Assembly: GCA_000004985.1 (NCBI GenBank)
Contig: GG738856.1
Source: Naegleria gruberi
Lineage: Eukaryota
Direction: 5' to 3' (one strand)
Length of the DNA stretch: 64,000 nt
The notes under the pieces are model-generated. The model was not told the origin of the DNA and did not search any database. It saw nothing but the letters and a program-made list of their open reading frames with translations. This document shows positions 8,865 to 61,049 of the stretch, piece after piece; within the stretch, counting starts at the first letter, position 1; every line of letters starts with the position of its first letter. Both the position numbers and the translations under genes were made by a program.

Positions 8865-11032
8865 ATGGATAAGAAACATTTGGTGCTGATGGGTCCGCCA
8901 GGTGCCGGAAAGACAACCACCAGGTTCGTATTAATATTAAGAATTTACCATCTTCATCACCATAATTATCGGAACAACTTTTGTTTGGATATTAAATTAT
9001 AATAATAATTTGATAATTTAGTAAATTATTGGGAAAATTATTGAACATACCAGTCTTTGATATTGATGATGATTTATTGGAGGTTGTATGGAATATGCCA
9101 GTCTCTGAAAAACTTTCTCAGGTTGGTGAGGAAGGCTTTATTCAAGCTGAAGGAAAAGCCTGTTTGGAATTGAGGATGGAATCATCGGAGCCTACATTGA
9201 TTGCTCTGAGTGGGAGTGTTCCTCTTCATAGGGATGCTATTGAGAATATTAGAAAACAGGGAGTGGTGATTTATTTGGATATTCCTTCGACGATTATTGA
9301 AAAGAGATTGCATGAAATGAAGGTGGATCGAATTGTTGGAATGAAGGAGGGACAGACATTGGCCGATTTGTTGGATTATAGAAAGACGTTTTATGAACAG
9401 TTTTTTGATGTGAGAGTGGCTTGTTCTGTGGCACAACCTGTTGAGGAGGTAGCTCAGAGAGTTGTTAATGCTTGGAATTTGTATAGGAATGTGAATGGAG
9501 AACAGGATTATGTTAGTACGAGAGGAGGTCTATTGGATGCTGGAGTTTCATTTTCACACGTTGTTACAAAGGGTTTGGCTTTGGATGGAGGTCTCTATGT
9601 TCCAAGAGTTTTGCAATCTTGTTCATTGAATGAGTTGGCATCTATGGCCTTGTTAAAATCATATCAGGATGTTGCATTGAGAGTTTTGGAAAAATTCCCA
9701 CTTGGAACAGAGTTAACCTCACAAGAATTAAGAAAGATGATTGACACTACTTATTCCACATTTTCACATCCAAGTGTTGTACCACTTTCTGAGAAAATCT
9801 CCCCTGAAAAACATCAATATCACATTGAATTATTCCATGGACCAACGGCAGCGTTTAAGGATGTTGCCCTTCAATTAGTTCCTAAACTATTTGTTCATGC
9901 CAAGAATCAATCAGAGGAATTGAAAAACTCAAAATTCTTAATACTTACCGCAACGAGTGGAGATACAGGAGTATCTACAATGGAAGGATATAAATCAGAG
10001 GCCGAAGCAGGTGTCTCAGTGCTTGTGTTGTATCCTCAGGGTGGTGTAAGTGAATTACAGGAGAGGCAAATGTTGTGCTCTCAAACTGAAAATATTCGAG
10101 CTGTTAGTGTGAAAGGAAATTTTGATACTTGTCAAACAATTGTAAAGGAAATTTTCTCTGATAGAGCGCTAGCAACAGAGTTGGAAAATACTTTTGGACT
10201 CAGACTTTCAAGTGCTAATTCAATTAATTGGGCAAGAATTATTCCTCAAGTTGTTTATTATGTGACAAGTTATTTGGAGCTTTACAAGAGGTCTGTAATC
10301 AAACTTACTGAACCCGTTGATATTGTTGTACCGAGTGGAAATTTTGGTAATTTACTTTCTGCGATATTTGCTTGGAAAATTGGATTGATTTATGTGAACA
10401 AGTTCATTTGTGCCTCAAATGAAAATTGTATATTAGCCGATTTTGTAAAAACAGGAATTTATGACATTAGGGAAAGAACTTTACAAAAGACTACATCTCC
10501 TTCAATAGATATACTAGTATCTAGTAATATTGAGAGACTCTTATATTTGATTTGTAATAATCCAACTCAGGTGGCTCAATACATGAAACAATTATCAGAG
10601 GAAAAGTGCTTTGAAGTCTCTCCAGAAATTAAGGAATTTTTACAAACCAAGTTTGATTCATGTACTGCTAGCGAGTCGCAAGTTGCCCAAACTATTAATT
10701 AGACTTTGAAGGAAAGCAAATTAATTATTGACACTCACACAGCCGTAGCTCAATATGCAGCCAACAAGTTTTACAATAGTCAAATACCAATGTTAATTGC
10801 ATCAACAGCACACTGGAGCAAATTCCCAATCAGTGTACTTCAAGGTATCAAACCTGAATTACAAATATCGGATCTTTCTTCAACATTTGGAGAATTGGGC
10901 AGTGTACTTGCTACAAACACCAAACCACACCCAAATATTTCTCAAATTTTAGAAAAGTCAGCTGTGCAATCTATTAATCTTATTGATAAGGATGAGGTGG
11001 TAATGTTTTTGAAACAATTAATACAGAAATAG
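8865..11032 (+). CDS. THNSL1-like protein: an N-terminal shikimate-kinase-like P-loop domain fused to threonine synthase (PLP enzyme). Exon 1 is 8865..8923, followed by a 98-nt intron, then exon 2 from 9022. An in-frame TAG at 10700-10702 interrupts the threonine-synthase domain. The C-terminal 108 codons (10703..11032) continue in the same frame.
   Basis: The spliced product reads MDKKHLVLMGPPGAGKTTTSKLLGKLLNIPVFDIDD (shikimate-kinase P-loop plus DxD). Threonine-synthase hallmarks YVSTRGG and FHGPTAAFKDVALQ (PLP lysine) follow. After the TAG come IIDTHTAVAQY and IASTAHWSKF, the conserved thrC C-terminal motifs (DPHTAV, STAHPAKF). The final stop is TAG at 11030-11032. Confidence 0.8.
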
Positions 11033-11052
11033 ATTGCATTCAAATAGTTTTC

Positions 11053-20901: not shown

Positions 20902-23900
20902 TTAACAATCCATCAACTCTTTCAACTTGGGATAGAATCCCAATAATCCCTCAATATCAATATGGGTATGTAAATTAGTCTGTTCTCTTATAATACTAGT
21001 CTTATTCAATCGTTTCAGGAAATCTGCATTATATCTTAATTGATAATGGGCATGCATTAGACATGAAATGTTAATTTCCACACATTGAGTGATGAATTCC
21101 TCATTGCAACGTAATTCTAGAACAGCATATTGAAGGGCAGTTTTGTCGTGGCGAACAGCTTCCAGGACTAGCTCTCTATCACTCCGTATTTCAAATGATC
21201 CATATTGTAATGGATTATATCGTTTTCCATCTGGTGTCAATTTCACATTTTGAACTGTATTCCACATAATTTCTCTATCCTTCAAGAAACAACAAGTGGC
21301 AACAAATTGAATTGAATCTCCATCATTTTTGACAGCTGCCAATACAACCTCTCTGTCAAGCTTGAATTGGGGTGGAACATGATTCAATACCATTCCATTT
21401 GTTGTAACGGATTCCAAAACAAAGTCACGATCATTTTGTAACTCTTCACTCGCATATAGGAAAGGAATTGAATCAGTTTTCATGGCTTTCAGTAGTATTT
21501 CCTTGTTGTGTTTGAATTCATTTTTAAATTCATCAGAAATGTAAACTATTGATTTTCCATTACTTTCCAATGCCTTCAATATAATATCCCTATCACTTCT
21601 CCATTTGAGTGGAAGTAATAATAAATCAAACTCTTTAGGGGAAATTTCCATGATAAATTCCTTATCAATCAAATCGTATGGTACATATCCAATATTGTTC
21701 ATGCTATTATTAACGGCCTTGATAGCATGCTTTCTGTTTCTTTTTACAGAATCAGGAAAAAGAAGCAGTAAACTCTCATTTTCAATACTTTTCACAAATG
21801 TAGAATCATCAATTTTTTCCATCATTTCTTTCTGTGACGAAAGATGCTGTGTTAATTTTGTTGCTACAGCTTTTGTAAACAACTCCAAGTCATGCATCAA
21901 ATGCTCTGAAGCAAATCCCAGAGAAGTAGGTTCTGAACTAATGGCCTTCTCTACAATTTCCCTATCACTTTTCAACTGTTCTGATGCATGTTTCAGTAAA
22001 TATCCATTGAATGAGACAGCGTTCATGATAATTTCTCTATCTTGACACAGTTCTTTTGAAATAAACTCAATAATACAAGGACTAACCTTAGAAACCTTCA
22101 AAACGAAATCTCTATTACTTCTCAATCGCTCGCTTGCAAATGAGAAAAATTTATAACCAGAATTTGAACATGCAGCAGCCATAACAATCTCTTCATCATC
22201 TCTAAAATCGGAAGCAAACTCTAAATTATTAGATGATCGCTTACAAGCTTCATAAACAAGCTCTCTATCCAATATTTCTACAAAAATATGCTTTAGAGAA
22301 CAATACATTCTAATGGCAATCAATGCTAGTTCTCTGTCACTACGTAGATATTTGGAAGCATATTGAAACTCATCACCATTTTGTTGAATAGATGTTAGTA
22401 CTATCTCTCTATCGTTTTTAAAATCTTGGATAACATTACGAATAATACCTGAATTTTTCACGGATTCTAAAATGAGTTCTCTATCCTCTTTTAATTCATA
22501 ACCTATAAAGGGATAAATATCTGAGCATGAATGCCTTATTGCTGTCATTATAATTTCTCTATTGTTTCTAAATTTCTCTGGTATGTATTTTATCATGGAT
22601 CCATCTCGATTAATTATATCATCTATTAGCCCTCTATCACTCCTTAATTCTTCTGATAAAAACTCAAAATTTCCAGAATCATATAGTAAGGCCTTGGTTA
22701 CCAACTCTCTTTCAGAACATAGCTCTTTGGAAGCCTTTTTCAACGCATCAGGATAAATTCTTACCGCTCTTATAATTAATTCTCTATCATTACTTAAACT
22801 CTCAGGAATTAGATCAAGAACTTTTTCATTGTGTGGCAGTAAATCCATTAATAATTTCCTATTGTTATAAATATCTTCACGTCCAACCTTTTCAAGGCAA
22901 TCCGGATCTATTTCAATAAACTTCAAACAAAGATCGTTACCTATGTTTCCTTCCATTGTCATTGAAAAAAAATGACTATAATCTGTAAACTTTTGAATCA
23001 GCCTCATTCTGAAATCTTCATCTTGTGCCAAAGGATAGTTGCAATATCTGATATAAAGAAATACTTGATATGCTGATGATGCACAGTCGTAGATGAAATC
23101 AGGGTTATCTTTAAATCTATTTGATAAATTAGTAACGATGCTCAATTGTTTTTTGAGTGCTATTGAAACTATTTCATCATCCTCTCGGATGTTGATAGGT
23201 GCATATGATAATGAGTGTGGTGATGATTTTACAGCTTCTATGGCGATTTCTCTGTCCTGCTGGAGATTCATTGTTAAATAATTGTAGCAATTACCCTTCA
23301 ATTTAACCATTTCGAGAACAAACTCTCTATCACATTTGAGTTCTGTAGATGCAAAATCAAAAGATAATCCTGAAGTTCTAACAGCTGATGATATAATCTC
23401 TCTATCATTTAACAACTCCAAAGGGGCATACTTAATTGCCAAATAATAAGTTTTCACAGAAATTAATACCAACTCTCTATCAATCAAATGTTGTGGTACG
23501 AATTTAATGGATGATCCCTTCTTTTTAACAGCATCCAAAACAACCCCCCTATCATTCTTCAATCGTGGTGATGCAAACTCAAGAGAATTAATATAGCTCT
23601 TCACCATCTTCCTTACAATCATCTCATCATCATGAAACTTGTCAAGAAATTTAAAAAAACTACATGGGCTATTATATGTTCTATCCCTTGCAATCATGAT
23701 TATCCTCTCAACGAACTCTCTATTACTCCTCAATTCCTCGCTCACAAACTCTACAGCACTTGCATCAACTTTAACAGCTCTAAGAACAACTTTCTCATCA
23801 TTTCTCAAATTTTCGGATGCAAACTCCAACAATGAACCATCCTTTTGCAGTGCACGAAAAAAAGCTAGCTTGCAATCATTGTCAGGAAATGGATTTTGTT

Positions 23901-24171
23901 CAATGTATTTCCTATTGAATATTGGATCATGTTTCAATTGTTCGATGTGTTTATATATTTGTTCGTTCTTTTCGATTCTTGTGGAAGAAACTTGTTGAAA
24001 ATGGTTAAGTGCTAATAAATTACAATCGTGAGGATGATGATCGTAGGAAAACTTGTTGGTCAATTTATCAAAGGCTACAATCAGCAAATCAGTGAAGGAT
24101 AATTGATGCATTTTTTTCAGGTTGGAAATTGAACATTTTGTAAACTGGAATAACAGTTTAGTAACAAACAT
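20902..24171 (-). CDS. Large DUF4116-repeat protein with about 25 tandem 30-35 aa repeats.
   Basis: Repeats have the form DRE(I/L)VLxAVKxxGxxLxFASxELRxDREFV throughout, for example DREVVLAAVKNDGDSIQFV and DRELVLEAVRHDKTALQYA. This is the DUF4116 pattern known from kinetoplastids and other protists. It lies 20 nt downstream of the CobW-like gene. Confidence 0.65.
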   Translation of the reverse strand: MFVTKLLFQFTKCSISNLKKMHQLSFTDLLIVAFDKLTNKFSYDHHPHDCNLLALNHFQQVSSTRIEKNEQIYKHIEQLKHDPIFNRKYIEQNPFPDNDCKLAFFRALQKDGSLLEFASENLRNDEKVVLRAVKVDASAVEFVSEELRSNREFVERIIMIARDRTYNSPCSFFKFLDKFHDDEMIVRKMVKSYINSLEFASPRLKNDRGVVLDAVKKKGSSIKFVPQHLIDRELVLISVKTYYLAIKYAPLELLNDREIISSAVRTSGLSFDFASTELKCDREFVLEMVKLKGNCYNYLTMNLQQDREIAIEAVKSSPHSLSYAPINIREDDEIVSIALKKQLSIVTNLSNRFKDNPDFIYDCASSAYQVFLYIRYCNYPLAQDEDFRMRLIQKFTDYSHFFSMTMEGNIGNDLCLKFIEIDPDCLEKVGREDIYNNRKLLMDLLPHNEKVLDLIPESLSNDRELIIRAVRIYPDALKKASKELCSERELVTKALLYDSGNFEFLSEELRSDRGLIDDIINRDGSMIKYIPEKFRNNREIIMTAIRHSCSDIYPFIGYELKEDRELILESVKNSGIIRNVIQDFKNDREIVLTSIQQNGDEFQYASKYLRSDRELALIAIRMYCSLKHIFVEILDRELVYEACKRSSNNLEFASDFRDDEEIVMAAACSNSGYKFFSFASERLRSNRDFVLKVSKVSPCIIEFISKELCQDREIIMNAVSFNGYLLKHASEQLKSDREIVEKAISSEPTSLGFASEHLMHDLELFTKAVATKLTQHLSSQKEMMEKIDDSTFVKSIENESLLLLFPDSVKRNRKHAIKAVNNSMNNIGYVPYDLIDKEFIMEISPKEFDLLLLPLKWRSDRDIILKALESNGKSIVYISDEFKNEFKHNKEILLKAMKTDSIPFLYASEELQNDRDFVLESVTTNGMVLNHVPPQFKLDREVVLAAVKNDGDSIQFVATCCFLKDREIMWNTVQNVKLTPDGKRYNPLQYGSFEIRSDRELVLEAVRHDKTALQYAVLELRCNEEFITQCVEINISCLMHAHYQLRYNADFLKRLNKTSIIREQTNLHTHIDIEGLLGFYPKLKELMDC

Positions 24172-24191
24172 TTAGAGTGTAACATGGAAGT

Positions 24192-25409
24192 TTATTGTTT
24201 CAAACATGCGTTGAAACCTTCATTTAATTCTTCATGATCCAAATATTTACCAATGAAAACAAGCTTGTTTGTTGTGTCATTATTCTTCCATTCACCAAAG
24301 AATCTCATATCTAAAAGACTGTGAACAGCTTGAACAACGAGAGGTTTTGCTTCTCCTACATTGAGGAATCCCTTAGTTCTATAAATGTCCAATCCTCGTT
24401 CAGTCAACAAGTCCAACAACCAATCCTCAAACTTTTCCTTATCAACAACACCAGGTTTGACAATGGCATATGAAGTGACCTCAGCATCATGATGGTCATG
24501 CTTGTGGTGGTGATCATGTTCTTCTTCATGTTGATGTTCATCCATTTCCTTCAACAAGTTTGGATCCATATTCAAAACTCTATCAATGTCAAATGCACGA
24601 ATATTCAAAATAAAAGACAAGTCAATCTTGGAATGGCTAGTTTCACAAATTGGTGACAAACCATTAATCTTTCTAATCTTTTTCAGAACCTTCTTCTTGG
24701 TATCTTCATCAATGAGGTCAACTTTGTTTACAATAATTCTATCAGCAAAGGCAACTTGATCTTCAGCTTCATTTTCTTCCTCTTCTTCTTCTTCTTCCTC
24801 TTCGCCATGTTTCTTTTCATGATGATGGTGATGTAAATGTTGAATAATATGCTTGCTGTCAACCACTGTAACAATACCATCAAGATAATATTCATTTCTC
24901 ACTTGTTCATCAAGATAGAAAGTTTGAACAATAGGACCCGGTAAAGCCAAACCAGTAGTTTCAATGCAAATATAATCAAACTTGTCCTTCTTTTGTGATA
25001 ACTTGGTCAAGGCTCCGATCAAGTCTCCTCTCAATGTACAACACAAACATCCATTACTCAATTCAACAACTTCTTCCTTTGATGTAACAATAAGAGCATC
25101 ATCAATCGATACTTCACCAAATTCATTTTCAATAATTGCAATTCTATATCCATGATTTTGAGAGAGAATATAATTCAATAATGTTGATTTACCTGCTCCC
25201 AAAAAACCAGTCAAGACTGTAACTGGAAGCTTCTTTGGTTTAGCTTGAGTAACAATAGGTTGTTGTGTAGCTGATTCCGATGATGATGTAGTTTGTTCTA
25301 GGTCGTTTGGTTTTTGCATCTTGTTGGCTGGTTCTTCAAGAGTTTGATGACTTGTATCGTTGTTGCTTCTTGTTGTTTGTTCTTCTTCTTCGTGTTGTCT
25401 CTTGGACAT
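24192..25409 (-). CDS. COG0523/CobW-family GTPase (ZNG1/CBWD-like metallochaperone) with poly-His and poly-Glu metal-binding stretches.
   Basis: The P-loop is TGFLGAGKSTLLNYIL. The CxCC motif is GCLCCT. Segments HHHHHEKKHGEEEEEEEEE and EHDHHHKHDHHD are typical of COG0523 proteins. Confidence 0.75.
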   Translation of the reverse strand: MSKRQHEEEEQTTRSNNDTSHQTLEEPANKMQKPNDLEQTTSSSESATQQPIVTQAKPKKLPVTVLTGFLGAGKSTLLNYILSQNHGYRIAIIENEFGEVSIDDALIVTSKEEVVELSNGCLCCTLRGDLIGALTKLSQKKDKFDYICIETTGLALPGPIVQTFYLDEQVRNEYYLDGIVTVVDSKHIIQHLHHHHHEKKHGEEEEEEEEEENEAEDQVAFADRIIVNKVDLIDEDTKKKVLKKIRKINGLSPICETSHSKIDLSFILNIRAFDIDRVLNMDPNLLKEMDEHQHEEEHDHHHKHDHHDAEVTSYAIVKPGVVDKEKFEDWLLDLLTERGLDIYRTKGFLNVGEAKPLVVQAVHSLLDMRFFGEWKNNDTTNKLVFIGKYLDHEELNEGFNACLKQ

Positions 25410-30078: not shown

Positions 30079-30538
30079 AATTCTAATTTAGGAATGAATC
30101 AGGAAAATTAAATATTAATGCAATTATTGCATAATGATTTGTAGTTTTTGAAATTTTTACAAGAAATTCTGACTCTTTGAACACTAGATTCCTCCATTTC
30201 ATTATTAGATACTCAGAATTCCAATTTAAATTCAACCAAAAACTCATTAAGCAGCAACAACATTCCATAATCTAAACAATCAAATTATCGTATTCCAATT
30301 AAATAAGTTGTTTCATTTCCTGATCTCAGAGTTAGAATGATTTTCTATGTGGTCTGATATCAAACGAAACCAAAAAAAACAACAAATTAAAATCATCTAC
30401 TGCATGGATTGAAAGAAAAAAGAAGAAAATACTTTGTTCACATTCTAAATTACAATTTTGATCAGTAAAATATCATTTTCCTTTCACAATTCGTCTGTCA
30501 TTTGCCAAGAGCTCCAAATTTCAAAAAGCAAAAAAAAA

Positions 30539-31870
30539 ATGTCACTTGGCAACCAGCAAGATATTATCATTGTAGGAGGAGGTCCAGTTGGTCTGTGGAC
30601 AGCCAGTCAAATCAAATTATTAAATCCACAATTAAATATTCTAATTTTGGAAAAACATGAAAATTACAAAAGAAGTCATTTCGCATTCTTGGAAGCAAAT
30701 TCATTTGAATTGATGGCTGAGCATCCAAATTTGATGGATTTAAAGAATAGGTTGCAATCGGATAAGAAAATCAAGACAAGTGAATTGGAAGAAACTTTAT
30801 TCGAATTGTGTAATCAACTTGGTGTGCAAATAATTAAAGGATTTCCGGTTGAGTGTGGTAAAGAAATTGAAGCAAATTTTCCTGGAGTTCAATTAATTAT
30901 TGGTGCAGATGGTGCTCACAGTACTATTCGAAAGACAGTTTGTTCTGGGTTATTAGAAAGTGAAATTTTTAAATATTCGAATCATTTTCACACTCTCATG
31001 GAGGTGAAATATCAAGCTATTGGCGAAACTAAACCAATGGATATGATCAATATCGGCTATCCACTCATGAAACACATTGGAGTAGTTGTGAATGAAATTA
31101 TTGGAAAGCAAAACGAAAGTGGAAATAGTCCAATAACTTTACAATTTTTTGTGAATGAAAATATTGGAGAATCAATCAAGAATGCAACATTTAAGAATCC
31201 AATTCAATTCCACTCCATGAAAGAAACTCTTCCAAATCAAATTCGAGCAATAATTGAATTTTGGTTGGCAGCTCGTTTCCAATATTATGCAGAGAAACAT
31301 GTCGAAAGTTCTGTAACTATTACAAGCACCAAATTGGGATCTTATGCAAGTAGATATTATGTGAGAAATTTTGGAACGAAAGCAATTTATTGTTTGGTTG
31401 GAGATGCTGCTTTTGGAATGCCTTTTTTTAGAAGTTTAAATAATGGACTATTGTGCGCAACTATTCTAGCTCAATGTGTTGTGAAACATTTTGAGGGAAA
31501 AGATTATCAATTTGCATTCTCTTTGGAAGGTGTTGTGAATTCTCTTGTTGGTGGAACGAAACAATTTCTTGGACTTTCGAATATTCCATACGAAGGTGAA
31601 CATATTTCTCAACCTCTAATCAAATATGCAAGTTATGCAATGAATTTGGAAGAATCACAATTGAAAATAGCAAGAGCAAAAAGTATTGGATTGAAAACTT
31701 TCCAAACTTGGACCAAAATTAGTGCAATTGTTCCTTGGCAAGTGAATAAGCTCAGACCAGAACAATTGGAGGAAGTTAGGACAGCCATTGGAATATTTAG
31801 TAGTGAGGATGATAGAGAAATGTATGATGATATTGTGGAAGATGGATTTGTTCTTGTGGAAAAATTGTAA
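30539..31870 (+). CDS. FAD-dependent monooxygenase (flavoprotein aromatic hydroxylase family).
   Basis: The dinucleotide-binding motif is IIIVGGGPVGLWTA. GADGAHSTIR is the GADGxxSxxR motif. GDAAFGMPFF is the GDAAH-like FAD motif. Confidence 0.7.
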   Translation: MSLGNQQDIIIVGGGPVGLWTASQIKLLNPQLNILILEKHENYKRSHFAFLEANSFELMAEHPNLMDLKNRLQSDKKIKTSELEETLFELCNQLGVQIIKGFPVECGKEIEANFPGVQLIIGADGAHSTIRKTVCSGLLESEIFKYSNHFHTLMEVKYQAIGETKPMDMINIGYPLMKHIGVVVNEIIGKQNESGNSPITLQFFVNENIGESIKNATFKNPIQFHSMKETLPNQIRAIIEFWLAARFQYYAEKHVESSVTITSTKLGSYASRYYVRNFGTKAIYCLVGDAAFGMPFFRSLNNGLLCATILAQCVVKHFEGKDYQFAFSLEGVVNSLVGGTKQFLGLSNIPYEGEHISQPLIKYASYAMNLEESQLKIARAKSIGLKTFQTWTKISAIVPWQVNKLRPEQLEEVRTAIGIFSSEDDREMYDDIVEDGFVLVEKL

Positions 31871-31902
31871 ATTTGATCAATTTTAAAATTCACAATAAAA
31901 AA

Positions 31903-33042
31903 ATGAAAAAAAGTCAACCAGCATCAATAGCCGAAACTCTCGCAAATCGTCAAGAGGAAATTCTTTTGAAACTTAAACTGACCAACAAGAGAACACTCGA
32001 CACTTCACAGAAATCAATTCTTCAACCTGGTGAATGGATCAAGGCAATTCCCTTTCCTCCAAGTAAAAGTTGGATGCGACATTTAACAGAGGATTTATTT
32101 GTTGGAGGTGATGGTAATGAGTCGGTGATTTTCCGATTGGATATCGATGGCTTGATAGACAAGGAGAAATCTCTAGGATACTGTGATAATGTTGTTGAGG
32201 TTGTTAGTGAGCTGAAAGGAAGTTTTTATTCTCTGATTTCGGATTATTACCTTGTAACGTCCCGTGCAAATAAGGATGGGAAACGAGAGGATCATTATGT
32301 GTATGATTGGAGAAGTGGGAGGATGGTTTTTAATTTGATTGGATTTCCTGCAGGTAGAATTCTTTCGTTTGTTGCAATTTATAAGAATGGCTATTGTGTG
32401 GCGATGAGTTCAGATCAAACAGATGGTGGTAATTGTAAAATACACTTGATTAACATGATGGAAAAGAAGAAGGAAAGGATTTATATTCAATACTCAATCA
32501 AACATTCAGCTAGGGAAGGCTTTATGTGTCTAACAACTTTTGAAGCTACTGGAAATAGAATAGTTATGATACTATCAGAAAAACCACATGTTTTCAAATG
32601 GGATTTGAAGGCAGGAAAATTGAGGGAGGAATATGTGATTGAGGATCTTCCTTTTTGTTTTACAGGATGTATGATTGATAAGGATATTGCTGTGTTTCAA
32701 GGCAGCAACACTTTAGTTTACAATTTAGAAACAAAACAATTACTGAAAAATATTCCAAATGTTGTACGTACTGATATTCAACATGTTGGATTGGATTCAT
32801 TATGGTTAGTTAGATCTAATTTTTTAAATTATAAAAGTGGAGAAATAGTAGAGATGCCCTATAAGAGTGCAGACTATAGCTCACTTTTCCAATACAAAGA
32901 TAAACTATTGGTATTAGGTCATAAGAAATTCGGTGTTGTTACTGAAGTGACTAAGGTTCTTAAAGAAGTTCACTCCATACAGGAGTTCAATAAGAAGGCA
33001 CTTGCCATATTTTCAGATATTAGAGTAATAAATCAAAATTGA
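31903..33042 (+). CDS. Hypothetical protein, possibly beta-rich/propeller-like; no domain recognised.
   Basis: A long ORF with an ATG in an aaaaaaATG context. No motif was identified. Confidence 0.45.
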   Translation: MKKSQPASIAETLANRQEEILLKLKLTNKRTLDTSQKSILQPGEWIKAIPFPPSKSWMRHLTEDLFVGGDGNESVIFRLDIDGLIDKEKSLGYCDNVVEVVSELKGSFYSLISDYYLVTSRANKDGKREDHYVYDWRSGRMVFNLIGFPAGRILSFVAIYKNGYCVAMSSDQTDGGNCKIHLINMMEKKKERIYIQYSIKHSAREGFMCLTTFEATGNRIVMILSEKPHVFKWDLKAGKLREEYVIEDLPFCFTGCMIDKDIAVFQGSNTLVYNLETKQLLKNIPNVVRTDIQHVGLDSLWLVRSNFLNYKSGEIVEMPYKSADYSSLFQYKDKLLVLGHKKFGVVTEVTKVLKEVHSIQEFNKKALAIFSDIRVINQN

Positions 33043-34841: not shown

Positions 34842-37800
34842 ATGTTGACTGAAAATAATAATTATCAATCATCGGCAGCAGTTAGTTCTTCCTCTTCATC
34901 ATCAAAGAGACATCAACATCATGATGATGACGACAATGATTATGATGATAAATTTAAAAAGTTTTCTGATCCGACAGAGGCTGCCAAACACACTTTCAGA
35001 TCACTTGATCGAGTTCCAGGATCATCATTCACAATCAGATCTAATAACAATAATACCACTTCTGATAATAATAACAATGAAAATAATCCAATTGATAGTG
35101 GCTTTGGACAGAATCAAAGGAAATTCCCAGAAAAACCATCAGCACACAGAACACCACTACAACAAGTGGGTGACTTTTTCAATAGTTTGATATTCAGTTT
35201 ACTCTATGTTACTGCTGACACAAAGAAGAGATTTTATAGTTTCCTTGTTGGTCTGATTACTATTGCTATTGTTGTGTTTGTTGTCAGTATATTGTACAAT
35301 TCAATTCTGAAAGCAAATTTAATCTTCTTGAAATTATCTGAGGACAATGTTGGAGATGCTGATATAATGTTTACACCAAAATTCACAAATTTAACAACTA
35401 TACCTTTTATTAACAATACCGAGATTAGTGAAAAATTAGCTAATAGTCCTTATATTACTGGCACAACCCCTCGTTGGATTATATTTGCCAATCTACAGAA
35501 TAGAGATCAACCTCAAAAGAATATTAGTGGACTTCTCTTGATTTTGGATACTGAGAGAGAAGAACAATTGGGAATTGGTAGAATATGGCCATACAGACCT
35601 CTTGGAGAAGGAGAAATTCATGTGAGAGATTCTATATTGCGAGCCATTGATGTGAAGCCAAATAGAGGGCAGAGAACTAATCTTGTAATTGATTTTGCCA
35701 GTTTGGCCAGTGCATTCTCTGGAAGTACTGAAGCCATACAGAATGGTGTGGATCCAACTCAACAAAATTTCGATCAAGCTCAATTATTGAGATCTCTTTT
35801 CATTTAAACTTAAAAGTGAAGGGTGAATCTTCTGTTGTTGATTCTATCACCTCCAATTATGCCAAATATCCAAGTGCTCTTGGTAACGTAATGATTATTG
35901 ACAGTCACTATGTAGGTCAAATAATTGAAGAGTCACTATTTGCCTCGCCCTCTACGCAGTTACTTTTGGAAATTACAGGAAATACTCAAAAAATCAAAAA
36001 CTTTTTCAAAACTTTCCCAATAGAACAGTACAGTTTAACTCTAGCAGGTCGACTGAAAGACAGATTCCCAACCTATCTCAAGAGTGATAATGAAAGAAAA
36101 CAAGCAGTTATTGGCATTACCAATGGTATGATGGATAGTATTGGAGTTGCTTATCCAGTCACTTACACTCTTCCACTTTTGAGTGCTTTAGATGGTACCA
36201 AATTTATTTCATTATTTATTGATCAAATCTTTATTGGAGTTGTTGTCATGTTAGCCATTTTGGGTATCATTTTGATTTTTGCCCTCCTTTTGGCCAATGT
36301 TGAGGAGAAAACCTATGAATATGGTATGTTGAGAGCCCTAGGTCTTCGTCAGTATTCTCTTATTCAGGTCATTTTGGCTCAATCCATGTACTTTGCCATA
36401 CCTGCCATCATTATTGCCATGGTACTTGCCTTCTTGGTAAATATTTTGGTTGAGTATGTATTACAAGTTGTTATCAGCACTCCAAGCTTGAATTTGTACT
36501 TCTTCTGGGCTGCAGTTGTAGTTCCAATTGCTCTTGGTTTTGGTATTCCTATTATTGCTAACGTTATTCCAATTAGACATGCTATGAGCAGAACTTTGAG
36601 AGATTCACTTGACATTGCCCATCAAACTTTCAATGAAACCACTGTCAAAATGATCAAACTTGAAGAATTAGGATTGGAACCATGGCAAACTGGTGTATCT
36701 ATTTTATTGGTTATTATTGGTTTTGTAGTTTACTATATGATTCCATATTCATTTATTTTCACTGATCTCCCACTCTTCTTCTTTATTTTGAATGCTATTC
36801 TATTGGGTATGCTTGTTGGATTGTGTATTATTGCTGTCGTATTAGAACCATTCTTTGAGAAGATTATATTGAATTTAATCTTGTGTGGACCTGAAAGAAA
36901 ATTGAAGACTTTAATTTCCAAGAATTTGGCTGGTCACCGTAAACGTAGTAGAAAGACCTTCCTCATGTTTACACTCTCAGTTGCCTTTATTGTTTTTGCT
37001 GGTGTTGTCTTTTCATTGCAATCAGCTAATATTCGTGCAAATGTTGAGGCTTTCCTTGGTGCAGATATTGTTGTCATTTCAACCAATTCACGTTATTCAC
37101 TTCCTAAAGACAAACTCAATGAAGCTATTGCACTCCAAAACAGTAGAAACAAAACGATAGAAGCACCAGTTAAGGGACATGCCTACCAATCATTCAGTAT
37201 TGCTAATATTCCGTTCTTTACTGGTTCTAGATTCTCCTCACTTGCCTATTTCCCTAACAGAAGAGTTGTTTATAATGCAGTGGACAGAAACTTTTTGAGT
37301 GTTGTCAAGAGCAAGTACTTCCTCTACACATACATTGATTCAAGTTTCACGTACAATATCACAGATGAGAAACCAGATGTTTTCCAAAGTTTGTACGATA
37401 ATGCAGGACAAGCTCTTGTTGATGGAGAAAAGGTTGGATTCGCACCAAGTATTGTATACAGTGGTGTAAAACTCAATTTCGAAGACAATTATACCTTAAC
37501 CTTTGATCCAGCCTCTCAATACTCACAATACATTGATATTGTAGCTTCTGAAGCTATGAGACCATCTGTTGGTATTGGAATTAAGACTCCAACCGATTTG
37601 AGATTCTCTGGCATCAATAGTAAGACAGGAACTCAAAATTATGTAGATTTTATTGGCAAGTCAAGATGCCTTGCCTATAAGGTCCCTGGTTTCTTCTATT
37701 CTTCATATGAACTTACTGCTTCTGGTTCTCCTGTTATTATTACTATGGATGCATACAAGAAAATTGCAAGATCAGTCGCTAAATCAGTTGGTCTCACTAC

Positions 37801-38377
37801 TTATAATGATGAAGTTTACTATCAAAAGCTCTTTATCAAGCTCAAAGATGAAATTACAACCTTTGAAGTACAAGACGTTTTCAATGCCTTACAAGCTTCT
37901 GTTAGTTCTGATTTCACAAGTATTCAAAATGTCAGAGATTTGGTTGGTAGTACAGAGACTGCTACACTTGTCCTTATGGCTTTCTTCAACATTGTTGCTG
38001 CTATTGCCATCATTTTGTGCTTCTTCATGTTGGCTGTTTCATTCACTGCTAACGTTAGAGATAACTCTTGGGAATTTGGTGTGTTGAGATCTATTGGTTT
38101 GTCTGTCAATGCACTCATTCGTGCCTATATTTATGAAGCTCTTTGCTTGGTCATTTCGGCCTTTATTTCTGGTACTGTGATTGGTTGTGTAATTGCCTTG
38201 ACATTAACAGCTCAGTTCAACTTGTTCTTGGAGATGCCGTTCCAATTCGATTTCCCATACTACCTCTTCTTCTCTATTCTTATCATGGCTCTCATTTGTG
38301 CCATTCTGGGTAGTTACTTGCCTGCTAGAAATTTGAGAAAGAAGGAAATTGCTCTCGTCATTCGTGGAGCTGAATAA
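34842..38377 (+). CDS. FtsX-like permease family (DUF214, MacB/LolE-type) protein with two FtsX 4-helix domains. The coding sequence is split into two ORFs, 34842..35807 and 35816..38377, by an apparent frameshift near 35730-35810.
   Basis: ORF 1 has an N-terminal TM (FLVGLITIAIVVFVVSILY) and the start of a large extracytoplasmic loop. ORF 2 continues the loop, then FtsX domain 1 (ILGIILIFALLLANVEEKTYEYGMLRALGLRQYSLIQVIL...), a second loop, and FtsX domain 2 (IVAAIAIILCFFMLAVSFTANVRDNSWEFGVLRSIGLSVNALIRAYIYE...). The reading frames overlap open for about 75 nt with no intron signals. Confidence 0.6.
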
Positions 38378-46506: not shown

Positions 46507-46579
46507 TGCTGACGGACGGGATCGAACCGGCGACCAATGGCTTATTAGACCAACGCTCTACCGACTGAGCTACGCCAGC
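46507..46579 (-). tRNA. tRNA-Ile (anticodon AAT).
   Basis: The reverse complement GCTGGCGTAGCTCAGTCGGTAGAGCGTTGGTCTAATAAGCCATTGGTCGCCGGTTCGATCCCGTCCGTCAGCa folds as a cloverleaf. The anticodon loop is CTAATAA and the T-loop is TTCGATC. It closely resembles eukaryotic tRNA-Ile(AAU). There is one mismatch each in the anticodon stem and the T-stem. Confidence 0.7.
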
Positions 46580-49315: not shown

Positions 49316-50433
49316 TTAAATATAGAATTCATTAAGTGATGTTAATAATTTTGCTTCATCACTAATTCGATTGGCATAAACATAGAGTGATGTTAATTGT
49401 TTCATTCCACTTATGAACTTGGCTCCTTCATCACCAATTTCATTGTAACATATATCAAGTGATGTTAATTGTTTCATTTCACTTATCAATTTGGCTCCTT
49501 CATCAAGAATTATATTGTTAGAAATATTAAGTGATGTTAATTGTTTCATTCCACTGATGAATTCGGCTCCTTCATCATAAATTAGATTGTTAGAAATATC
49601 AAGTGATGTTAATTGTTTCATTTCACTTATGAATTTGGCTCCTTCAACACCCATTGGATTGCTAGAAATATCAAGTGATGTTAATTGTTTAATCTCGCTT
49701 AGATATTTGGCTCCTTTATCATCAATTCCACTCTTATAAATAGTAAGTGATGTTAATTGTTTCATTTCACTTATCAATTTGGCTCCTTCATCACTAATTT
49801 CATTCTTAGAAATATTAAGTGATGTTAATTGTTTCATTCCACTTATGAGTTTGGCTCCTTCAACACCAATTTCATTCTTAGAAATATCAAGTGATGTTAA
49901 TTGTTTCATTTCACTTATAGATTTGACTCCTTCATCATAAATTAGATTTCCAGAAATATCAAGTGATGTTAATTGTTTCATTTCACTTATTAATTTGGCT
50001 CCTTCAACACCAATTCCATTCTTAAAAATATTAAGTGATGTTAATTGTTTCATTTCACTTATTAATTTGGCTCCTTCTACACCAATTTGATTGTCAGAAA
50101 TATCAAGTGATGTCAATTGTTTAATCTCACTTATGAATTTGCCTCCTTCTACACCAATTTCATTGACACCAATACTAAGTGATGTTAATTGTTTCATTTC
50201 ACTTATGTATTTGGCTCCTTCCACACCAATTTCATTGTAATATATATAAAGTGATGTTAATTGTTTCATTTCACTTATGTATTTGGATCCTTCTACACCA
50301 ATTCGATTATTACATATATTAAGTGATGTTAATTGTTTCATTTCACTTATGGGTTTGGCTCCTTCATCACCAATTCGATTGTTAGAAATATCAAGTGATG
50401 TTAATTGTTTCATTTCACTTATGAATTTAGCTC
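49316..50433 (-). CDS. RNI-type leucine-rich-repeat protein, C-terminal part. Its 5' end is lost in the 655-N gap.
   Basis: There are 15 or more near-identical 24-aa repeats of the form MKQLTSLDISxNxIGVEGAKLISE. The stop is at 49316. Confidence 0.7.
49370..50433. repeat. Tandem array of 72-nt units of about 85-95% nucleotide identity (coding LRR units), abutting the assembly gap.
   Basis: Recurring blocks gtgatgttaattgtttcatttcacttat(g/c)aatttggctccttca...aatatcaa are visible every 72 nt. Confidence 0.8.
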
Positions 50434-51088
50434 NNNNNNNNNNNNNNNNNNNNNNNNNNNNNNNNNNNNNNNNNNNNNNNNNNNNNNNNNNNNNNNNNNN
50501 NNNNNNNNNNNNNNNNNNNNNNNNNNNNNNNNNNNNNNNNNNNNNNNNNNNNNNNNNNNNNNNNNNNNNNNNNNNNNNNNNNNNNNNNNNNNNNNNNNNN
50601 NNNNNNNNNNNNNNNNNNNNNNNNNNNNNNNNNNNNNNNNNNNNNNNNNNNNNNNNNNNNNNNNNNNNNNNNNNNNNNNNNNNNNNNNNNNNNNNNNNNN
50701 NNNNNNNNNNNNNNNNNNNNNNNNNNNNNNNNNNNNNNNNNNNNNNNNNNNNNNNNNNNNNNNNNNNNNNNNNNNNNNNNNNNNNNNNNNNNNNNNNNNN
50801 NNNNNNNNNNNNNNNNNNNNNNNNNNNNNNNNNNNNNNNNNNNNNNNNNNNNNNNNNNNNNNNNNNNNNNNNNNNNNNNNNNNNNNNNNNNNNNNNNNNN
50901 NNNNNNNNNNNNNNNNNNNNNNNNNNNNNNNNNNNNNNNNNNNNNNNNNNNNNNNNNNNNNNNNNNNNNNNNNNNNNNNNNNNNNNNNNNNNNNNNNNNN
51001 NNNNNNNNNNNNNNNNNNNNNNNNNNNNNNNNNNNNNNNNNNNNNNNNNNNNNNNNNNNNNNNNNNNNNNNNNNNNNNNNNNNNNNNN
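50434..51088. other. Assembly gap (655 N) inside or next to a tandem LRR gene array.
   Basis: Run of n flanked by near-identical 72-nt repeats. Confidence 0.99.
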
Positions 51089-51148
51089 AGGCTTTGGAAA
51101 ATAACAAGGAATTTTAGTGAAATCAAATGAAAATACAGAATTGGAGTT

Positions 51149-52530: not shown

Positions 52531-53737
52531 CTAGTATTTATTTGAAAAGTAAGAAGAATTGGTGACATCACTTGGTTTTGGTCTATCTTCAGGATTCTTC
52601 TTTAACATTTGCATGACCATATCTACCAATTCAATGGAACAATTTGGAGAGCACTTGATAATATTTTCTCTGACAAGATTTTCTACATCCTTTTCGCTGG
52701 ACATGAGATTGAGATTGAGTTGACGTCTTTGGTGTTCCTTCAAATAGAGTTGAGTAATGCAAGTTTGTCTATCACCAGTCAGGCATTGATAGGCAGTTAC
52801 ACCAAGAGCGAAAATGTCTGTTTGGAAACAATTCTTACCTTGAACAATTGCTTCCCAACTCATGTAGATTGGTGTTCCAGCAAAGCCCATTTGAGTACTG
52901 AGTAGAGTATTTGCATCTCCTGTGACCAATGCTTGACTCAAATTAATATCACTACTGTCTGAAACTCTGGAAATGTTTGCATTATTACTAGTTGCTCCAC
53001 TAGTGGAATTTCTACCTTTCTTTGCCAAACCAAAATCACCCAATACAATATGAATCTGAGAACGGTGATAGTCAAAACTCTTGATAAATATGTTGGAAGG
53101 CTTAATATCTCTGTGAATCATATTGTACTCAGTGTTCATATAATCCAAAGCACTGCAAATTTGATAAATTAAGTGTGAGACGAGTGTTTCTGATAAAACG
53201 GTTTGGCCCAAGTAGCACTGATTGTTCATAAATTGTTCAAAATCTCCCAACTCGTAATAATCCATCTCCATACAAAGCATGTGTTGATTTGCATCAATAA
53301 AAACATCATTCACTCGTACAATATGTGGGTGTACCATTCTTAAAAGGTGTGTGGCTTCTCTGAGAGTTTGGTTAAGTTCATTCAAATCAGAGAAACGAAT
53401 AAGTTTGATGGCTTTCCATTGGAAGTTTTGCTTGGTATCTTGACCCTTGAAAACCAAACCAAATGAACCCTCACCAATTTTCATCAAATTAACAAATCTA
53501 TCAATGAGCATGGATTCACTTCCATTTAGTCTATTTTGAGAAGCATTACTGCTTAATTGAAGATTATTACCTGAAGAATCGTCCATCATACTCTTAGTTA
53601 GAGTCATGGCAGTTGAAACTTGAGAAATATTGAGGAAAGTTCTGATATTACCAGATCTATTAGAATATGGATCACTGCCACTCACAGGAGTTCCAACAAG
53701 ATTCAACTCAAAATTTTTATCCACAGAAAGAGTAAGA
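52531..53737 (-). CDS. Ser/Thr protein kinase catalytic domain. It is probably the cytoplasmic C-terminal part of the RCC1/EGF gene, with the upstream part lost in the 50-N gap.
   Basis: Motifs are IGEGSFGLVFKG (G-loop), AIKLI (VAIK), HRDIKPSNIF (catalytic loop), DFGLAK and GTPIYMSWE. A low-complexity juxtamembrane-like segment lies between the gap and the kinase. Confidence 0.8.
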
Positions 53738-53787
53738 NNNNNNNNNNNNNNNNNNNNNNNNNNNNNNNNNNNNNNNNNNNNNNNNNN
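53738..53787. other. Assembly gap (50 N) between the EGF-like modules and the kinase domain.
   Basis: Run of n. Confidence 0.99.
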
Positions 53788-56700
53788 GTAAAACAAGCAC
53801 AGGTATCAACACCTACGCATAATCCACTACCACTGCAAGCTGATGGATCATTGGCAGATAGTCCAAAACATGAAAAATATTGACAATTTTCACCTGTATA
53901 GCCAGCATTACACATACACAAGTCATTGGCAACACAAGTTCCATTTGCACTACATACTGATGAGTAGCTCCTATCAAGTCCACTACATTTAACTGATGGG
54001 CAAACATTTGGGATGTATGGCGAAGTGAGAACTACGCTGTGGAAAGCTCCTGCTGCAATAGATATGGCAATTCTTGGAGAGTTGTTACTTCCAAACTTGA
54101 ATTCTGCAGATGTAGCTGTCTTGTCGAGTGAAAATCCCAATTGACCATAGTCATTGTTGCCGTAAGCATAAACCATTCCTGTTGAAGTTAATATGACAGT
54201 ATGGAAAGCTCCAGATTGAATATCAGCAATACCTCCGTATGCGTATGGAAAGTTTACAGCAGTCGGAATGGTTACAATAGAACCACCACCATAGAGTGGA
54301 CCCAGTTGTTGGTAATCATTTCTTCCAAAAGCAAGTAACGTTCCATTCCTAGTTAAAATATGTGAATGATAAAAGCCTGCATAAACAGCAACTGGATTAT
54401 CAATTGGAATTTTGATAGGAGACGATGATTTGTCAATACCACTAACACCCAATTGACCATATGTGTTATCGCCAAAAGCAAAAGCTCCCTTTTCTGTTAG
54501 TACTAAAGAATGCTTTGCGCCACAAGAGGTTTGAAAAATCTTACCATTGGCTTGTGAGTTCCAGTTGACCTTTACAAGTTCTGGAGAATTTACCTCATTG
54601 CCAACTCCCAATTGACCATTACCGTTAAATCCAGCTGCATAGAGATTGTTGTTATCATCAGTTACAAGAATATGGTAAGCTCCACAAGTTACATTGGCAA
54701 TAACAACCCCTTTTGGTATTCCATATGGAGGATTTTGGGTAATATAACCACTTGTACCGAGCATGATGAGCTCACTGGTAGAATCTCTAATAGTGAACGC
54801 ATTTTGTAAAGTTGCACAAATCATTCTAGAAGGACTCCTCAATAACTCAATATTAGTTGGGCTGTAGAGCTTCTCTGGTGCGCCATCAATTCCGAACATG
54901 TTGTTGTAATTTAGACCAGAAACAAATGTTCCATTCAAAGATGCAATAAATGTTTGATATGCACCAGTACTAATACTATAATTCATACTACTGCCAAAGT
55001 CCACAACTGCAAATGCGTCTTGAGCCAAATCTGTCGTATATCTAAGGGATCTAGATGATGAGGCGCTTGTAACACCCAATTGACCCATATTGTTCATACC
55101 AAATGCATAAAGCTTGGACTGATTAGCAATAAGGAACGTTGTAAAGTCTGCTGCCTCAATATCTGATACATCACCTCTTACAAAGTTCAATTTTGAAGAA
55201 TATGAAACACCCCTCAAACCAAGTTGGCCGTAGTAATTTGAACCAACAGTATAGGTAGTATTGTCTTGCATGAGAACAACCAAGTGTCTTCTACCACAAA
55301 CCATCTTTAAAACTTGCTTTTGGATAAGAATAGGATCGATTAAAAGTCCAATACCATTAACTCCTCTAAAAGTATTATCAGAAATCCAAATAGTATTATT
55401 GTTCAAAAGAACCGCAAAGAACTTGTCACAAGCCAAAATCTTTGTAATACCGCTGGAAAAATAAAATCTGTCAAGATAATAAGCAGATACAGTGGCCTCA
55501 AACTTTGGGTCTGGCTTTTGGATGCTAAAGCTATCCTTGAAACCTCCAATGGCACTGGTTGATAAATTGACACCAGAAAATGAAATAACCTCTAAAAAGT
55601 TGGAATTTCTAATAATATTTGGATATTTAAAAGCACTCTCTAACTGGCCAAAGAAAATCAAAGAACCTTCATCAGTTAGCATTATAGTAAAGTATCTGGA
55701 TGCTTGAACAGAAATAATGTTTGGCTTCTTTTGTTTTCCCGCAGGACCTTCAATATATCCATTTCTCAAATCAAACTGCAATGGAACGGCTGTTTTGGAA
55801 ACAGGTATAGTTTGAGATGTTCCCAATAACCTTAAAGTGATATTTCCCATTTGTACATTAGCGTTTGATCCAAAGAATGTGAAAAAGTAATTATTGTGAA
55901 CAACAACTGTGTGGTCAGCTCCAGTATCAATAAGAGAAATATTCTTGAGTGGTAATTGATTCCAAGTACCAGCCTTTGTATCTAAACCAAGTTGATATTT
56001 GTTGTTTCTACCGCATGTATAAAGTTGTTTTTCGTTTTTAGTCACTACAACTGTGAACCCGTCACCAGTTAACACATTTCCAATGTTGTCAAAACTTGGT
56101 GCTTGTGCTGTTTGTGGAATTTTGTTTGGTTTCTTTCTAATATCCTTTTTGGTTAGTTCTGGAACTGTCGAAGTGGAACTCTTATCCAAGTCAATAATGT
56201 CGTTATCACTTGGGTCAACCATCACACTTTGATTCAATTCGGTTGATAAACCTAACGAATTATCGTCGTTTAACCCAAATCCAAACAAGTACTTTGTATC
56301 CTTTTCTTCATCACCAATAACAACTGTGTGAGTATAAGAAGTGGCTACCTTCCTCACTCTAATAGTATAATCATCATCACTGATCAGTGCTCTTGGTGGT
56401 TCTTGTGGCTTTCCATTGTTTCCATTGCCATTTCCGTTGCCATTTCCATTGTTTCCATTACCATTTCCATCAGCTATTGTTGTTCTTCCTTTGGATCTTG
56501 TTGTCAGTGAAGGAAAGATAACTAGCCAAGGTTCCAGCACAATATAATTGGCAAAAGTACTAGTGGTTGGTAGTGTAACAACAGTGCCATTACCCAATGC
56601 ACCTGATGTTGGTAAACCAGCTGATAGTATTTGAAAAGTTTGGATAGCTGGATATGGACTACAAGTTACAGGATATGAAGAAAATAATGGTCGTGGCATT

Positions 56701-60975: not shown

Positions 60976-61049
60976 GCCTTCCTAGCTCAGTTGGCAGTAG
61001 CGCTGTCCTAGTAAGACAGAGGTCTTGGGTTCGATTCCCAAGGGAGGCA
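60976..61049 (+). tRNA. tRNA-Thr (anticodon AGT).
   Basis: Hand fold: acceptor GCCTTCC/GGGAGGC, anticodon stem CTGTC/GACAG with loop CTAGTAA (anticodon AGT), T-arm TTGGG-TTCGATT-CCCAA, discriminator A. A T-run follows. Confidence 0.8.

What the first reader, a model, noticed from the sequence alone, without database searches (positions are those of the whole stretch)
10690..10710. In-frame TAG interrupts a THNSL1-like shikimate-kinase-like/threonine-synthase fusion gene
The threonine-synthase domain continues seamlessly across TAG at 10700-10702. Upstream is ..ESQVAQTIN and downstream is TLKESKLIIDTHTAVAQY...IASTAHWSKF. The alignment to thrC is ungapped, so the TAG occupies a sense position. 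The possibilities are a base-call error, a true nonsense allele or pseudogene, or stop-codon readthrough. TAG is used as a genuine terminator in neighbouring genes (the 13516 gene, and this gene's own end at 11030), so genetic-code reassignment is unlikely. The gene itself is notable. Its P-loop kinase domain (spliced exon 1 plus exon 2) fused to threonine synthase mirrors vertebrate THNSL1. The fusion could supply a non-GHMP homoserine-kinase activity.
Basis: partly seen in the sequence, partly recalled or inferred. Interest (0 to 1): 0.5.

Follow-up and report, generated by a model that had tools for sequence, protein, structure and literature searches.

The report
Premature stop in Naegleria THNSL1-like gene
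A single TAG stop codon cuts off the last sixth of an otherwise intact kinase/threonine-synthase fusion gene in the amoeba Naegleria gruberi, most likely an ordinary recent knockout mutation (or a base error in the assembly) and not a special decoding event.

Summary
The window is Naegleria gruberi. The gene (8865..8923 + 9022..11032) is NAEGRDRAFT_65068 / XP_002679746.1, and the 579-aa reference model ends exactly at the TAG at 10700-10702. The frame stays open for 109 more codons. These codons continue the threonine-synthase fold without a gap and keep the DTHTA and STAHWSKF motifs.

Homologues carry E, A, L, Q, K, D, R, S or T at the TAG position. In a model of the N. lovaniensis orthologue this position lies inside a helix.

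Nothing points to recoding:
- The context is TAG-A, as at the three TAGs that end long ORFs in the window.
- There is no downstream RNA structure and no credible Rfam match.
- Orthologues have sense codons at the site.
- No other gene in the window has an in-frame stop.

So this is an ordinary premature stop. It is either a very recent nonsense allele (favoured) or a consensus base error. I found no independent N. gruberi sequence to decide between the two.

One new point: the N. fowleri orthologue carries a 1-nt deletion about 70 codons upstream of the TAG-equivalent site. It is present in two records, and the reference annotation hides it behind an invented 77-nt intron. N. lovaniensis is intact.

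The fusion architecture matches vertebrate THNSL1 but also occurs in bacteria. Interest is low.

The parts
8865..8923 (+). Exon 1: start codon and P-loop (MDKKHLVLMGPPGAGKTTT, first two bases of Ser20)
   Evidence: The spliced translation equals reference protein P0001.
8924..9021 (+). Intron, 98 nt, GTTCGT...TTTAG
   Evidence: Removing it reproduces P0001 exactly.
9022..10699 (+). Exon 2 up to the premature stop: rest of the shikimate-kinase-like domain, Thr_synth_N, and most of the PLP domain. The PLP-lysine codon K299 is at 9857-9859 (FHGPTAAFKD). SGNFGN is also here.
   Evidence: Pfam, alignment A1, PDB alignments.
10700..10702 (+). In-frame TAG (codon 580), which is the end of the reference gene model. 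It aligns with E/A/L/Q/K/D/R/S/T in homologues.
10703..11029 (+). 109 further in-frame codons that continue the threonine-synthase domain. DTHTA is at 10730-10744 and STAHWSKF at 10802-10825.
   Evidence: Open frame statistics. 12 of 13 outgroup-conserved columns are retained. Ungapped alignments.
11030..11032 (+). Ancestral terminator of the gene (TAG)

Best explanation
This is the Naegleria gruberi orthologue of the THNSL1-type kinase/threonine-synthase fusion. One codon at a variable position inside a helix has become TAG. The TAG is read as a normal stop. The product is therefore the 579-aa protein of the reference annotation, which lacks the last 109 residues of the PLP-dependent domain. 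The lost part includes half of one helix, the DTHTA helix, a strand that the model predicts with high confidence, and the STAHWSKF motif. Such a product is most likely misfolded or inactive.

Everything else in the gene is intact, so the change is very recent. I take it to be a real nonsense allele of strain NEG-M, possibly heterozygous, in a gene that the genus can evidently lose.

Shown here: the TAG, the open and conserved downstream frame, the lack of any recoding signal, and the independent frameshift in N. fowleri. Inferred: that the base is real and not a consensus error, that the truncated protein is inactive, and that the gene is dispensable.
For: - The reference model ends at the TAG.
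- Downstream there are 109 open codons with 0 stops, against 6-8 in the other frames, and only 26 of 100,000 shuffles stay open.
- N. gruberi keeps 12 of 13 outgroup-conserved columns after the TAG. Its identity to outgroups there is 31.0%, like N. lovaniensis at 32.9% and N. fowleri at 29.5%. There is therefore no extra decay.
- The site is variable: E, A and L in the three other Naegleria sequences, and Q/K/D/R/S/T elsewhere.
- In the AlphaFold model of the N. lovaniensis orthologue (pTM 0.87), the equivalent residue E646 lies in helix 637-651. The segment after it is confidently folded, with pLDDT above 90 for residues 601-670 and 681-700. The model matches solved threonine synthases, with TM 0.91 to 8G1Y.
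- The context TAG-A is the same as at the three TAGs that end long ORFs in the window.
- There is no downstream RNA structure (z = +1.3) and no credible Rfam match (two weak matches far below gathering score).
- N. fowleri carries an independent 1-nt deletion in the same gene. It is identical in the reference assembly and in a Logan assembly of another run. This suggests the gene tolerates loss in this genus.
- The pangenome paper describes Naegleria as mainly a heterozygous diploid (PMC9928731), so null alleles can persist.
Against: - No read-level or second-assembly evidence for the T at 10700 could be obtained. A single substitution with perfect conservation around it is also exactly what a consensus error looks like.
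- N. fowleri/N. lovaniensis dN/dS is 0.24 before and 0.29 after the N. fowleri frameshift. The gene was therefore under purifying selection until recently, which does not by itself indicate dispensability.
- N. gruberi is too diverged from both species for dN/dS, because synonymous sites are saturated.
Confidence: 0.58

Rival explanations
1. Consensus or base-call error in the reference assembly. The real genome would have a sense codon (for example GAG, CAG, AAG or TTG) and encode a normal 689-aa protein.
For: - There is a single substitution-type lesion.
- The downstream frame is fully open and as conserved as in the intact N. lovaniensis orthologue.
- No second lesion is present.
- No independent N. 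gruberi sequence confirms the T.
Against: - By my own rough estimate, substitution errors that create a stop in one given 2-kb gene of a deep shotgun consensus are rarer than real heterozygous null alleles. This is an inference, not a measurement.
- The local sequence has no homopolymer or repeat that would invite error.
- The N. fowleri orthologue carries a lesion seen in two records, so real inactivation of this gene happens in the genus.
Confidence: 0.3
2. The TAG is real but is partly or fully read through (programmed or basal near-cognate readthrough), so a full-length enzyme is still made.
For: - The downstream frame is intact and conserved.
- The site tolerates many amino acids, so any inserted residue would be acceptable.
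Against: - The +4 base is A. This is the same context as the three TAGs that end long ORFs in the window. From general knowledge, it is not the C, CARYYA or CUAG type that favours readthrough.
- The 100 nt downstream fold less well than shuffles (z = +1.3).
- There is no credible Rfam match; the two weak matches fall far below gathering score.
- The stop is not conserved. N. lovaniensis has GAA and N. fowleri has CTC at this codon.
- An intact downstream frame is equally expected for a recent mutation.
Confidence: 0.06
3. The TAG is removed from the mRNA by an unannotated intron. One candidate is 10616..10702, which ends in the AG of the TAG. RNA editing would be another route.
For: In-frame GT..AG pairs spanning the TAG exist, including an 87-nt candidate that uses the TAG's own AG as acceptor.
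Against: - N. gruberi has no insertion relative to homologues here. Any such intron would therefore delete 10 or more aligned, partly conserved residues.
- The 87-nt candidate would remove 'VSPEIKEFLQTKFDSCTASESQVAQTIN', which is clearly homologous to the N. lovaniensis sequence.
- The donor GTCTCT is unlike the gene's real GTTCGT donor.
- From general knowledge, no U-to-C editing of nuclear mRNAs is known in Naegleria.
Confidence: 0.02
4. TAG is a sense codon in this organism, either through genetic-code reassignment or pyrrolysine-type decoding.
For: None beyond the TAG itself.
Against: - Long ORFs in the window end in TAA (25), TAG (4) or TGA (4).
- This is the only stop in the window flanked by 90 or more open codons on both sides inside a single gene.
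- The three tRNA genes in the window are ordinary.
- The gene's own terminator is TAG.
Confidence: 0.01

Closest known systems
Vertebrate THNSL1 (threonine synthase-like 1)
   Same: The domain order is the same: an N-terminal P-loop shikimate-kinase-like domain, then Thr_synth_N, then the PLP domain with FHGPTxxFKD, then the THR4_C region. Identity is 40-43% over 91-100% of the length, with E about 1e-150.
   Different: The N. gruberi copy has a premature TAG at codon 580. It lacks the long N-terminal extension of the vertebrate proteins. The biochemical function of THNSL1 was not found in the searchable literature.
Naegleria orthologues: N. lovaniensis C9374_000415 / C9374_013208 and N. fowleri FDP41_004272
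   Same: The architecture is the same, identity is 52-58%, and lineage-specific features are shared.
   Different: N. lovaniensis is intact, with GAA (E) or A at the TAG site. N. fowleri has CTC (L) there but carries a 1-nt deletion about 70 codons upstream. No synteny with the N. gruberi locus was found within 6 kb on either side.
Class II threonine synthase (ThrC/Thr4; PDB 8G1Y, 1KL7, 4F4F)
   Same: The C-terminal 500 residues align end to end (E 4e-86 to 8G1Y). The model of the N. lovaniensis orthologue superposes with TM 0.91 on 8G1Y and 0.86 on 1KL7.
   Different: This protein has an extra N-terminal kinase domain. Catalytic activity is untested and may not be threonine synthesis.
Bacterial SKI-threonine synthase fusions (candidate phyla radiation, e.g. 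Peregrinibacteria)
   Same: The fusion is full length, with 41-48% identity for the three proteins whose bacterial context was shown (P0005, P0009, P0011). That is about as close to Naegleria as animal THNSL1, or slightly closer.
   Different: These genes sit in bacterial gene neighbourhoods: FtsH, PNPase, GroEL/ES, ribosomal proteins, and an Orn/DAP decarboxylase 10 nt upstream. They have no intron and no premature stop.
Programmed stop-codon readthrough (e.g. the tobamovirus UAG-CAR-YYA type)
   Same: An in-frame UAG is followed by conserved coding sequence.
   Different: Here there is no favourable context, no downstream structure, and no conservation of the stop in orthologues.

Membership tests
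THNSL1-type kinase/threonine-synthase fusion | N-terminal P-loop shikimate-kinase-like domain (PF01202) | tested here: met
   SKI scores E 3e-24 and covers profile positions 1-157 of 159. The GPPGAGKT P-loop is present.
THNSL1-type kinase/threonine-synthase fusion | Thr_synth_N plus a PLP-dependent domain with the Schiff-base lysine motif FHGPTxxFKD and the SGNFGN loop | tested here: met
   Thr_synth_N scores E 1e-18. PALP scores 28.5 bits, which is below Pfam's 35-bit cut-off. F298, K299 and D300 are invariant, and SGNFGN is present.
THNSL1-type kinase/threonine-synthase fusion | Full-length similarity to named THNSL1 proteins | tested here: met
   Identity is 40-43% over 91-100% of the query, with E from 1e-152 to 1e-144.
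THNSL1-type kinase/threonine-synthase fusion | Uninterrupted reading frame through the C-terminal (THR4_C) region | tested here: not met
   There is a TAG at codon 580. The homologous region is present in frame behind it.
THNSL1-type kinase/threonine-synthase fusion | Shared biochemical activity | not testable with these tools
   No functional study of THNSL1 was found in the library.
Programmed stop-codon readthrough gene | Readthrough-favouring nucleotide context after the stop | tested here: not met
   The sequence is TAG ACT TTG. The +4 A is identical to the three TAGs that end long ORFs in the window.
Programmed stop-codon readthrough gene | Stimulatory RNA structure downstream | tested here: not met
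   MFE is -8.9 kcal/mol against a shuffle mean of -12.2, z = +1.3. No credible Rfam match; both weak matches are far below gathering score.
Programmed stop-codon readthrough gene | Stop codon conserved in orthologues | tested here: not met
   N. lovaniensis has GAA, N. fowleri has CTC, and the second N. lovaniensis copy has Ala.
Reassigned TAG genetic code | In-frame TAG recurrent in conserved genes, with TAG not used as a terminator | tested here: not met
   This is the only such stop inside a gene in 64 kb. TAG ends 3 other long ORFs.
Decayed (old) pseudogene | Multiple disabling lesions and relaxed constraint after the first lesion | tested here: not met
   There is a single lesion. Downstream, 12 of 13 conserved columns are kept and there is no excess divergence. 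dN/dS is not measurable for N. gruberi because dS is saturated.
Recent nonsense allele / unitary pseudogene | The lesion is real in the organism's DNA (reads, second strain) | not testable with these tools
   No independent N. gruberi sequence exists in the searched collections.

The most novel reading that the evidence does not exclude
Two Naegleria species each carry exactly one frame-breaking lesion in the last third of the same gene. N. gruberi has a TAG, and N. fowleri has a 1-nt deletion seen in two records. In both species the sequence behind the lesion is as conserved as in the intact N. lovaniensis gene. The most novel reading not excluded is that these transcripts are still decoded to full length, by readthrough in one species and ribosomal frameshifting in the other. 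That would make this locus a case of tolerated or regulated recoding in Heterolobosea.
Probability: 0.04. Interest if true: 0.6.

Novelty: new member of a known kind. Interest (0 to 1): 0.22.

Why it matters
The value is mostly curation. The N. gruberi reference protein XP_002679746.1 (D2V888) is a truncation at a premature stop, not a natural 579-aa protein. The N. fowleri model FDP41_004272 hides a frameshift behind an invented intron that deletes invariant residues. Both entries will mislead comparative and metabolic reconstructions. If both lesions are real, a THNSL1-type gene is being lost in parallel within one genus. That would be a small clue that this still-uncharacterised enzyme is dispensable for free-living and cultured amoebae. 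It does not open a new mechanism.

Tried and rejected
1. Independent N. gruberi sequence for the codon:
- A homology search with the 170 residues around the TAG found only distant proteins.
- An exact look-up of the reference protein's contigs found nothing on record.
- Exact look-ups also found nothing. These covered seven full-length variants with K/Q/E/S/W/L/Y at codon 580 and the ORF fragments a gene caller would produce.
- The metagenome scan gave one unrelated 1-kb fragment.

2. Literature:
- Searches on THNSL1 function, on Naegleria readthrough, on Naegleria threonine synthase and on the locus tag returned nothing useful.

3. Structure prediction:
I used the N. lovaniensis orthologue instead.

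4. Synteny:
- No synteny was found between the N. gruberi locus and the N. fowleri or N. lovaniensis loci within 6 kb.

5. Intron removal of the TAG:
- In-frame GT..AG candidates exist. They would delete aligned homologous residues, so I rejected this.

6. Code reassignment and suppressor tRNA:
- Rejected.

7. dN/dS for N. gruberi:
- Synonymous sites are saturated (pS above 0.7), so it is uninformative.

Full report
**Identity of the locus.**
- The window is AT-rich (about 33-35% G+C) and gene-dense.
- The gene translates to a protein whose first 579 residues are 100% identical to 'predicted protein [Naegleria gruberi]'. The accessions are XP_002679746.1, EFC47002.1, NAEGRDRAFT_65068 and UniProt D2V888.
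- My spliced model is exon 1 at 8865..8923, a 98-nt GT..AG intron, and exon 2 from 9022. It reproduces that reference protein exactly.
The public annotation therefore treats this TAG as the natural terminator.

**Check of the observation.**
- The TAG at 10700-10702 is in frame.
- The frame continues for 109 codons to a second TAG at 11030-11032.
- Those 109 codons contain no stop, while the other five frames of the same stretch contain 6-8 each. Only 26 of 100,000 shuffles of the stretch stay open.
- G+C by codon position downstream (0.42/0.33/0.28) matches the upstream exon (0.46/0.35/0.28).
- A 16-sequence alignment and HMMER alignments to solved threonine synthases 8G1Y and 4F4F cross the TAG without a gap.
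- Homologues carry E, Q, K, D, R, S or T at this column. The two N. lovaniensis copies carry E and A, and N. fowleri carries L.
The site is a sense position, and a poorly constrained one.

**What lies behind the TAG.**
- The downstream segment holds the DTHTA motif (10730-10744) and STAHWSKF (10802-10825). Both are nearly invariant in the family.
- Of 13 columns after the TAG that are conserved in eleven non-Naegleria homologues, N. gruberi keeps 12.
- Its mean identity to those outgroups after the TAG is 31.0%. The intact N. lovaniensis protein scores 32.9% and N. fowleri 29.5%. I see no accelerated decay.
- An AlphaFold model of the N. lovaniensis orthologue has pTM 0.87 and mean pLDDT 80. 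It places the equivalent residue, E646, inside helix 637-651.
- A helix beginning at the DTHTA motif (657-672), a strand (683-686) and further helices follow. Block pLDDT is above 90 for residues 601-670 and 681-700.
- The model superposes on threonine synthases, with TM 0.91 to 8G1Y and 0.86 to yeast 1KL7.
- Truncation at codon 580 therefore removes confidently folded elements of the PLP domain. That the truncated product is inactive is an inference, not a measurement.

**Tests for recoding.**
- The context is TAG ACT TTG. The +4 A is the same as at the gene's own terminator and at the two other TAGs that end long ORFs in the window.
- The 100 nt downstream fold less well than shuffled controls (z = +1.3).
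- Rfam gives only two weak matches, far below gathering score, in 8700-11300.
- The stop is not conserved. N. lovaniensis has GAA and N. fowleri has CTC.
- Long ORFs in the window end in TAA (25), TAG (4, two of them in this gene) or TGA (4).
- This TAG is the only stop in 64 kb that is flanked by at least 90 open codons on both sides inside one gene.
- The three tRNA genes in the window are ordinary.
- In-frame GT..AG pairs spanning the TAG exist. N. gruberi has no insertion relative to homologues here, so any such intron would delete homologous residues.
- I consider programmed readthrough, code reassignment and splicing-out all unlikely.

**Real allele or assembly error?**
- I could not find any second N. 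gruberi sequence, so this stays open.
- I favour a real, very recent nonsense allele for three reasons:
  - The lesion is a substitution in non-repetitive sequence.
  - Naegleria is described as a mainly heterozygous diploid, in which null alleles can persist (PMC9928731).
  - The same gene is broken independently in N. fowleri (next section).
- A consensus error remains a serious rival. I put it at about 0.3.

**Related locus: a masked frameshift in N. fowleri.**
- A Logan contig (SRR29240419, L002) splits the orthologue into a 540-aa and a 202-aa ORF.
- The cause is one missing base at ...TCACCTTCA-TTGATATT... relative to N. lovaniensis ...TCTCCTTCGATTGATATT....
- The N. fowleri reference assembly GCA_008403515.1 (L086) is 100% identical over 2,800 nt, including the deletion.
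- The reference protein FDP41_004272 reads 'FIYREDSTENNITFIDILKSS'. This corresponds to a 77-nt 'intron' (L002 7501..7577) that changes frame. It deletes the conserved ICASNEN...YD.R block, which includes the invariant N, N, F, D and R (invariant columns).
- With the frame repaired, dN/dS between N. fowleri and N. lovaniensis is 0.24 upstream and 0.29 downstream of the frameshift, with overall dS 0.69. This lesion is also recent.
- N. lovaniensis has an uninterrupted 742-codon main exon.
- Two of three sequenced Naegleria species thus carry a single, different disabling lesion in this gene.

**The gene itself.**
- Pfam finds SKI (E 3e-24), Thr_synth_N (1e-18) and PALP (28.5 bits, below the cut-off).
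- Vertebrate THNSL1 proteins match at 40-43% identity over nearly the full length.
- The fusion is not confined to eukaryotes.
  - P0005 (48-49% identical) lies on a 1.5-Mb contig among PNPase, FtsH, DNA polymerase III delta and ribosomal protein genes.
  - P0009 lies next to GroEL/GroES.
  - A Peregrinibacteria contig carries the full-length fusion 10 nt downstream of an Orn/DAP-decarboxylase gene.
- I found no published function for THNSL1.
It is untested, and nothing here bears on whether the substrate is homoserine.

**Verdict.**
- This is an ordinary premature stop in an otherwise intact THNSL1-family gene.
- It is most likely a recent nonsense allele (0.58), otherwise a base error (0.30). 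Readthrough is at about 0.06.
- The practical outcome is two annotation corrections and a hint of parallel gene loss in Naegleria. Interest is low.

Noticed in passing
L002 7600-7625 (Logan SRR29240419) and L086 3459-3481 (N. fowleri GCA_008403515.1, VFQX01000036.1): The N. fowleri orthologue has a 1-nt deletion in the codons for TSPS(I)DIL. The reference protein FDP41_004272 bridges it with an invented 77-nt frame-changing intron (L002 7501..7577) that removes the conserved ICASNEN...YD.R block, including invariant residues.
   Followed up: yes
P0002 (N. lovaniensis C9374_000415; L001 6001-6400) versus P0128 (C9374_013208): The two N. lovaniensis copies are at least 90% identical and sit on different contigs, so they are probably alleles or haplotigs. 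The P0002 model lacks part of the P-loop region ('GAGN--ILGM' against 'GAGKTTTSKKLGNILGM'), which suggests a mis-set splice site. The copies differ (E versus A) at exactly the position of the N. gruberi TAG.
   Followed up: partly
P0010 and P0012 (alignment A1): These two homologues have W at many positions where every other sequence has a conserved G, for example 'FQWPTAAFKD' and 'NFWNLL'. That pattern is expected if UGA-encoded glycine (the Gracilibacteria/SR1-type code) was translated as tryptophan by the gene caller.
   Followed up: no
L003, L004, L006: The kinase/threonine-synthase fusion also occurs in bacteria. One case is a Peregrinibacteria contig where it directly follows an Orn/DAP-decarboxylase gene. 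The three bacterial proteins examined are 41-48% identical to the Naegleria protein, about as close as animal THNSL1 (40-43%).
   Followed up: partly
window 50001-52000: This stretch has very low G+C (0.21) and long overlapping ORFs on both strands (50277..51130 on + and 50419..51126 on -). It is probably low-complexity or repeat sequence.
   Followed up: no
window 30458..33042, 34842..38377, 20902..25409, 52531..57323: These are pairs of long same-strand ORFs that abut or overlap in different frames. They are probably exons separated by short introns, but frameshifts were not excluded.
   Followed up: no
window 14637..14707 (+), 46507..46579 (-), 60976..61049 (+): Three nuclear tRNA genes are present: Trp-CCA, Ile-AAT and Thr-AGT. 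None has a stop-reading anticodon.
   Followed up: yes
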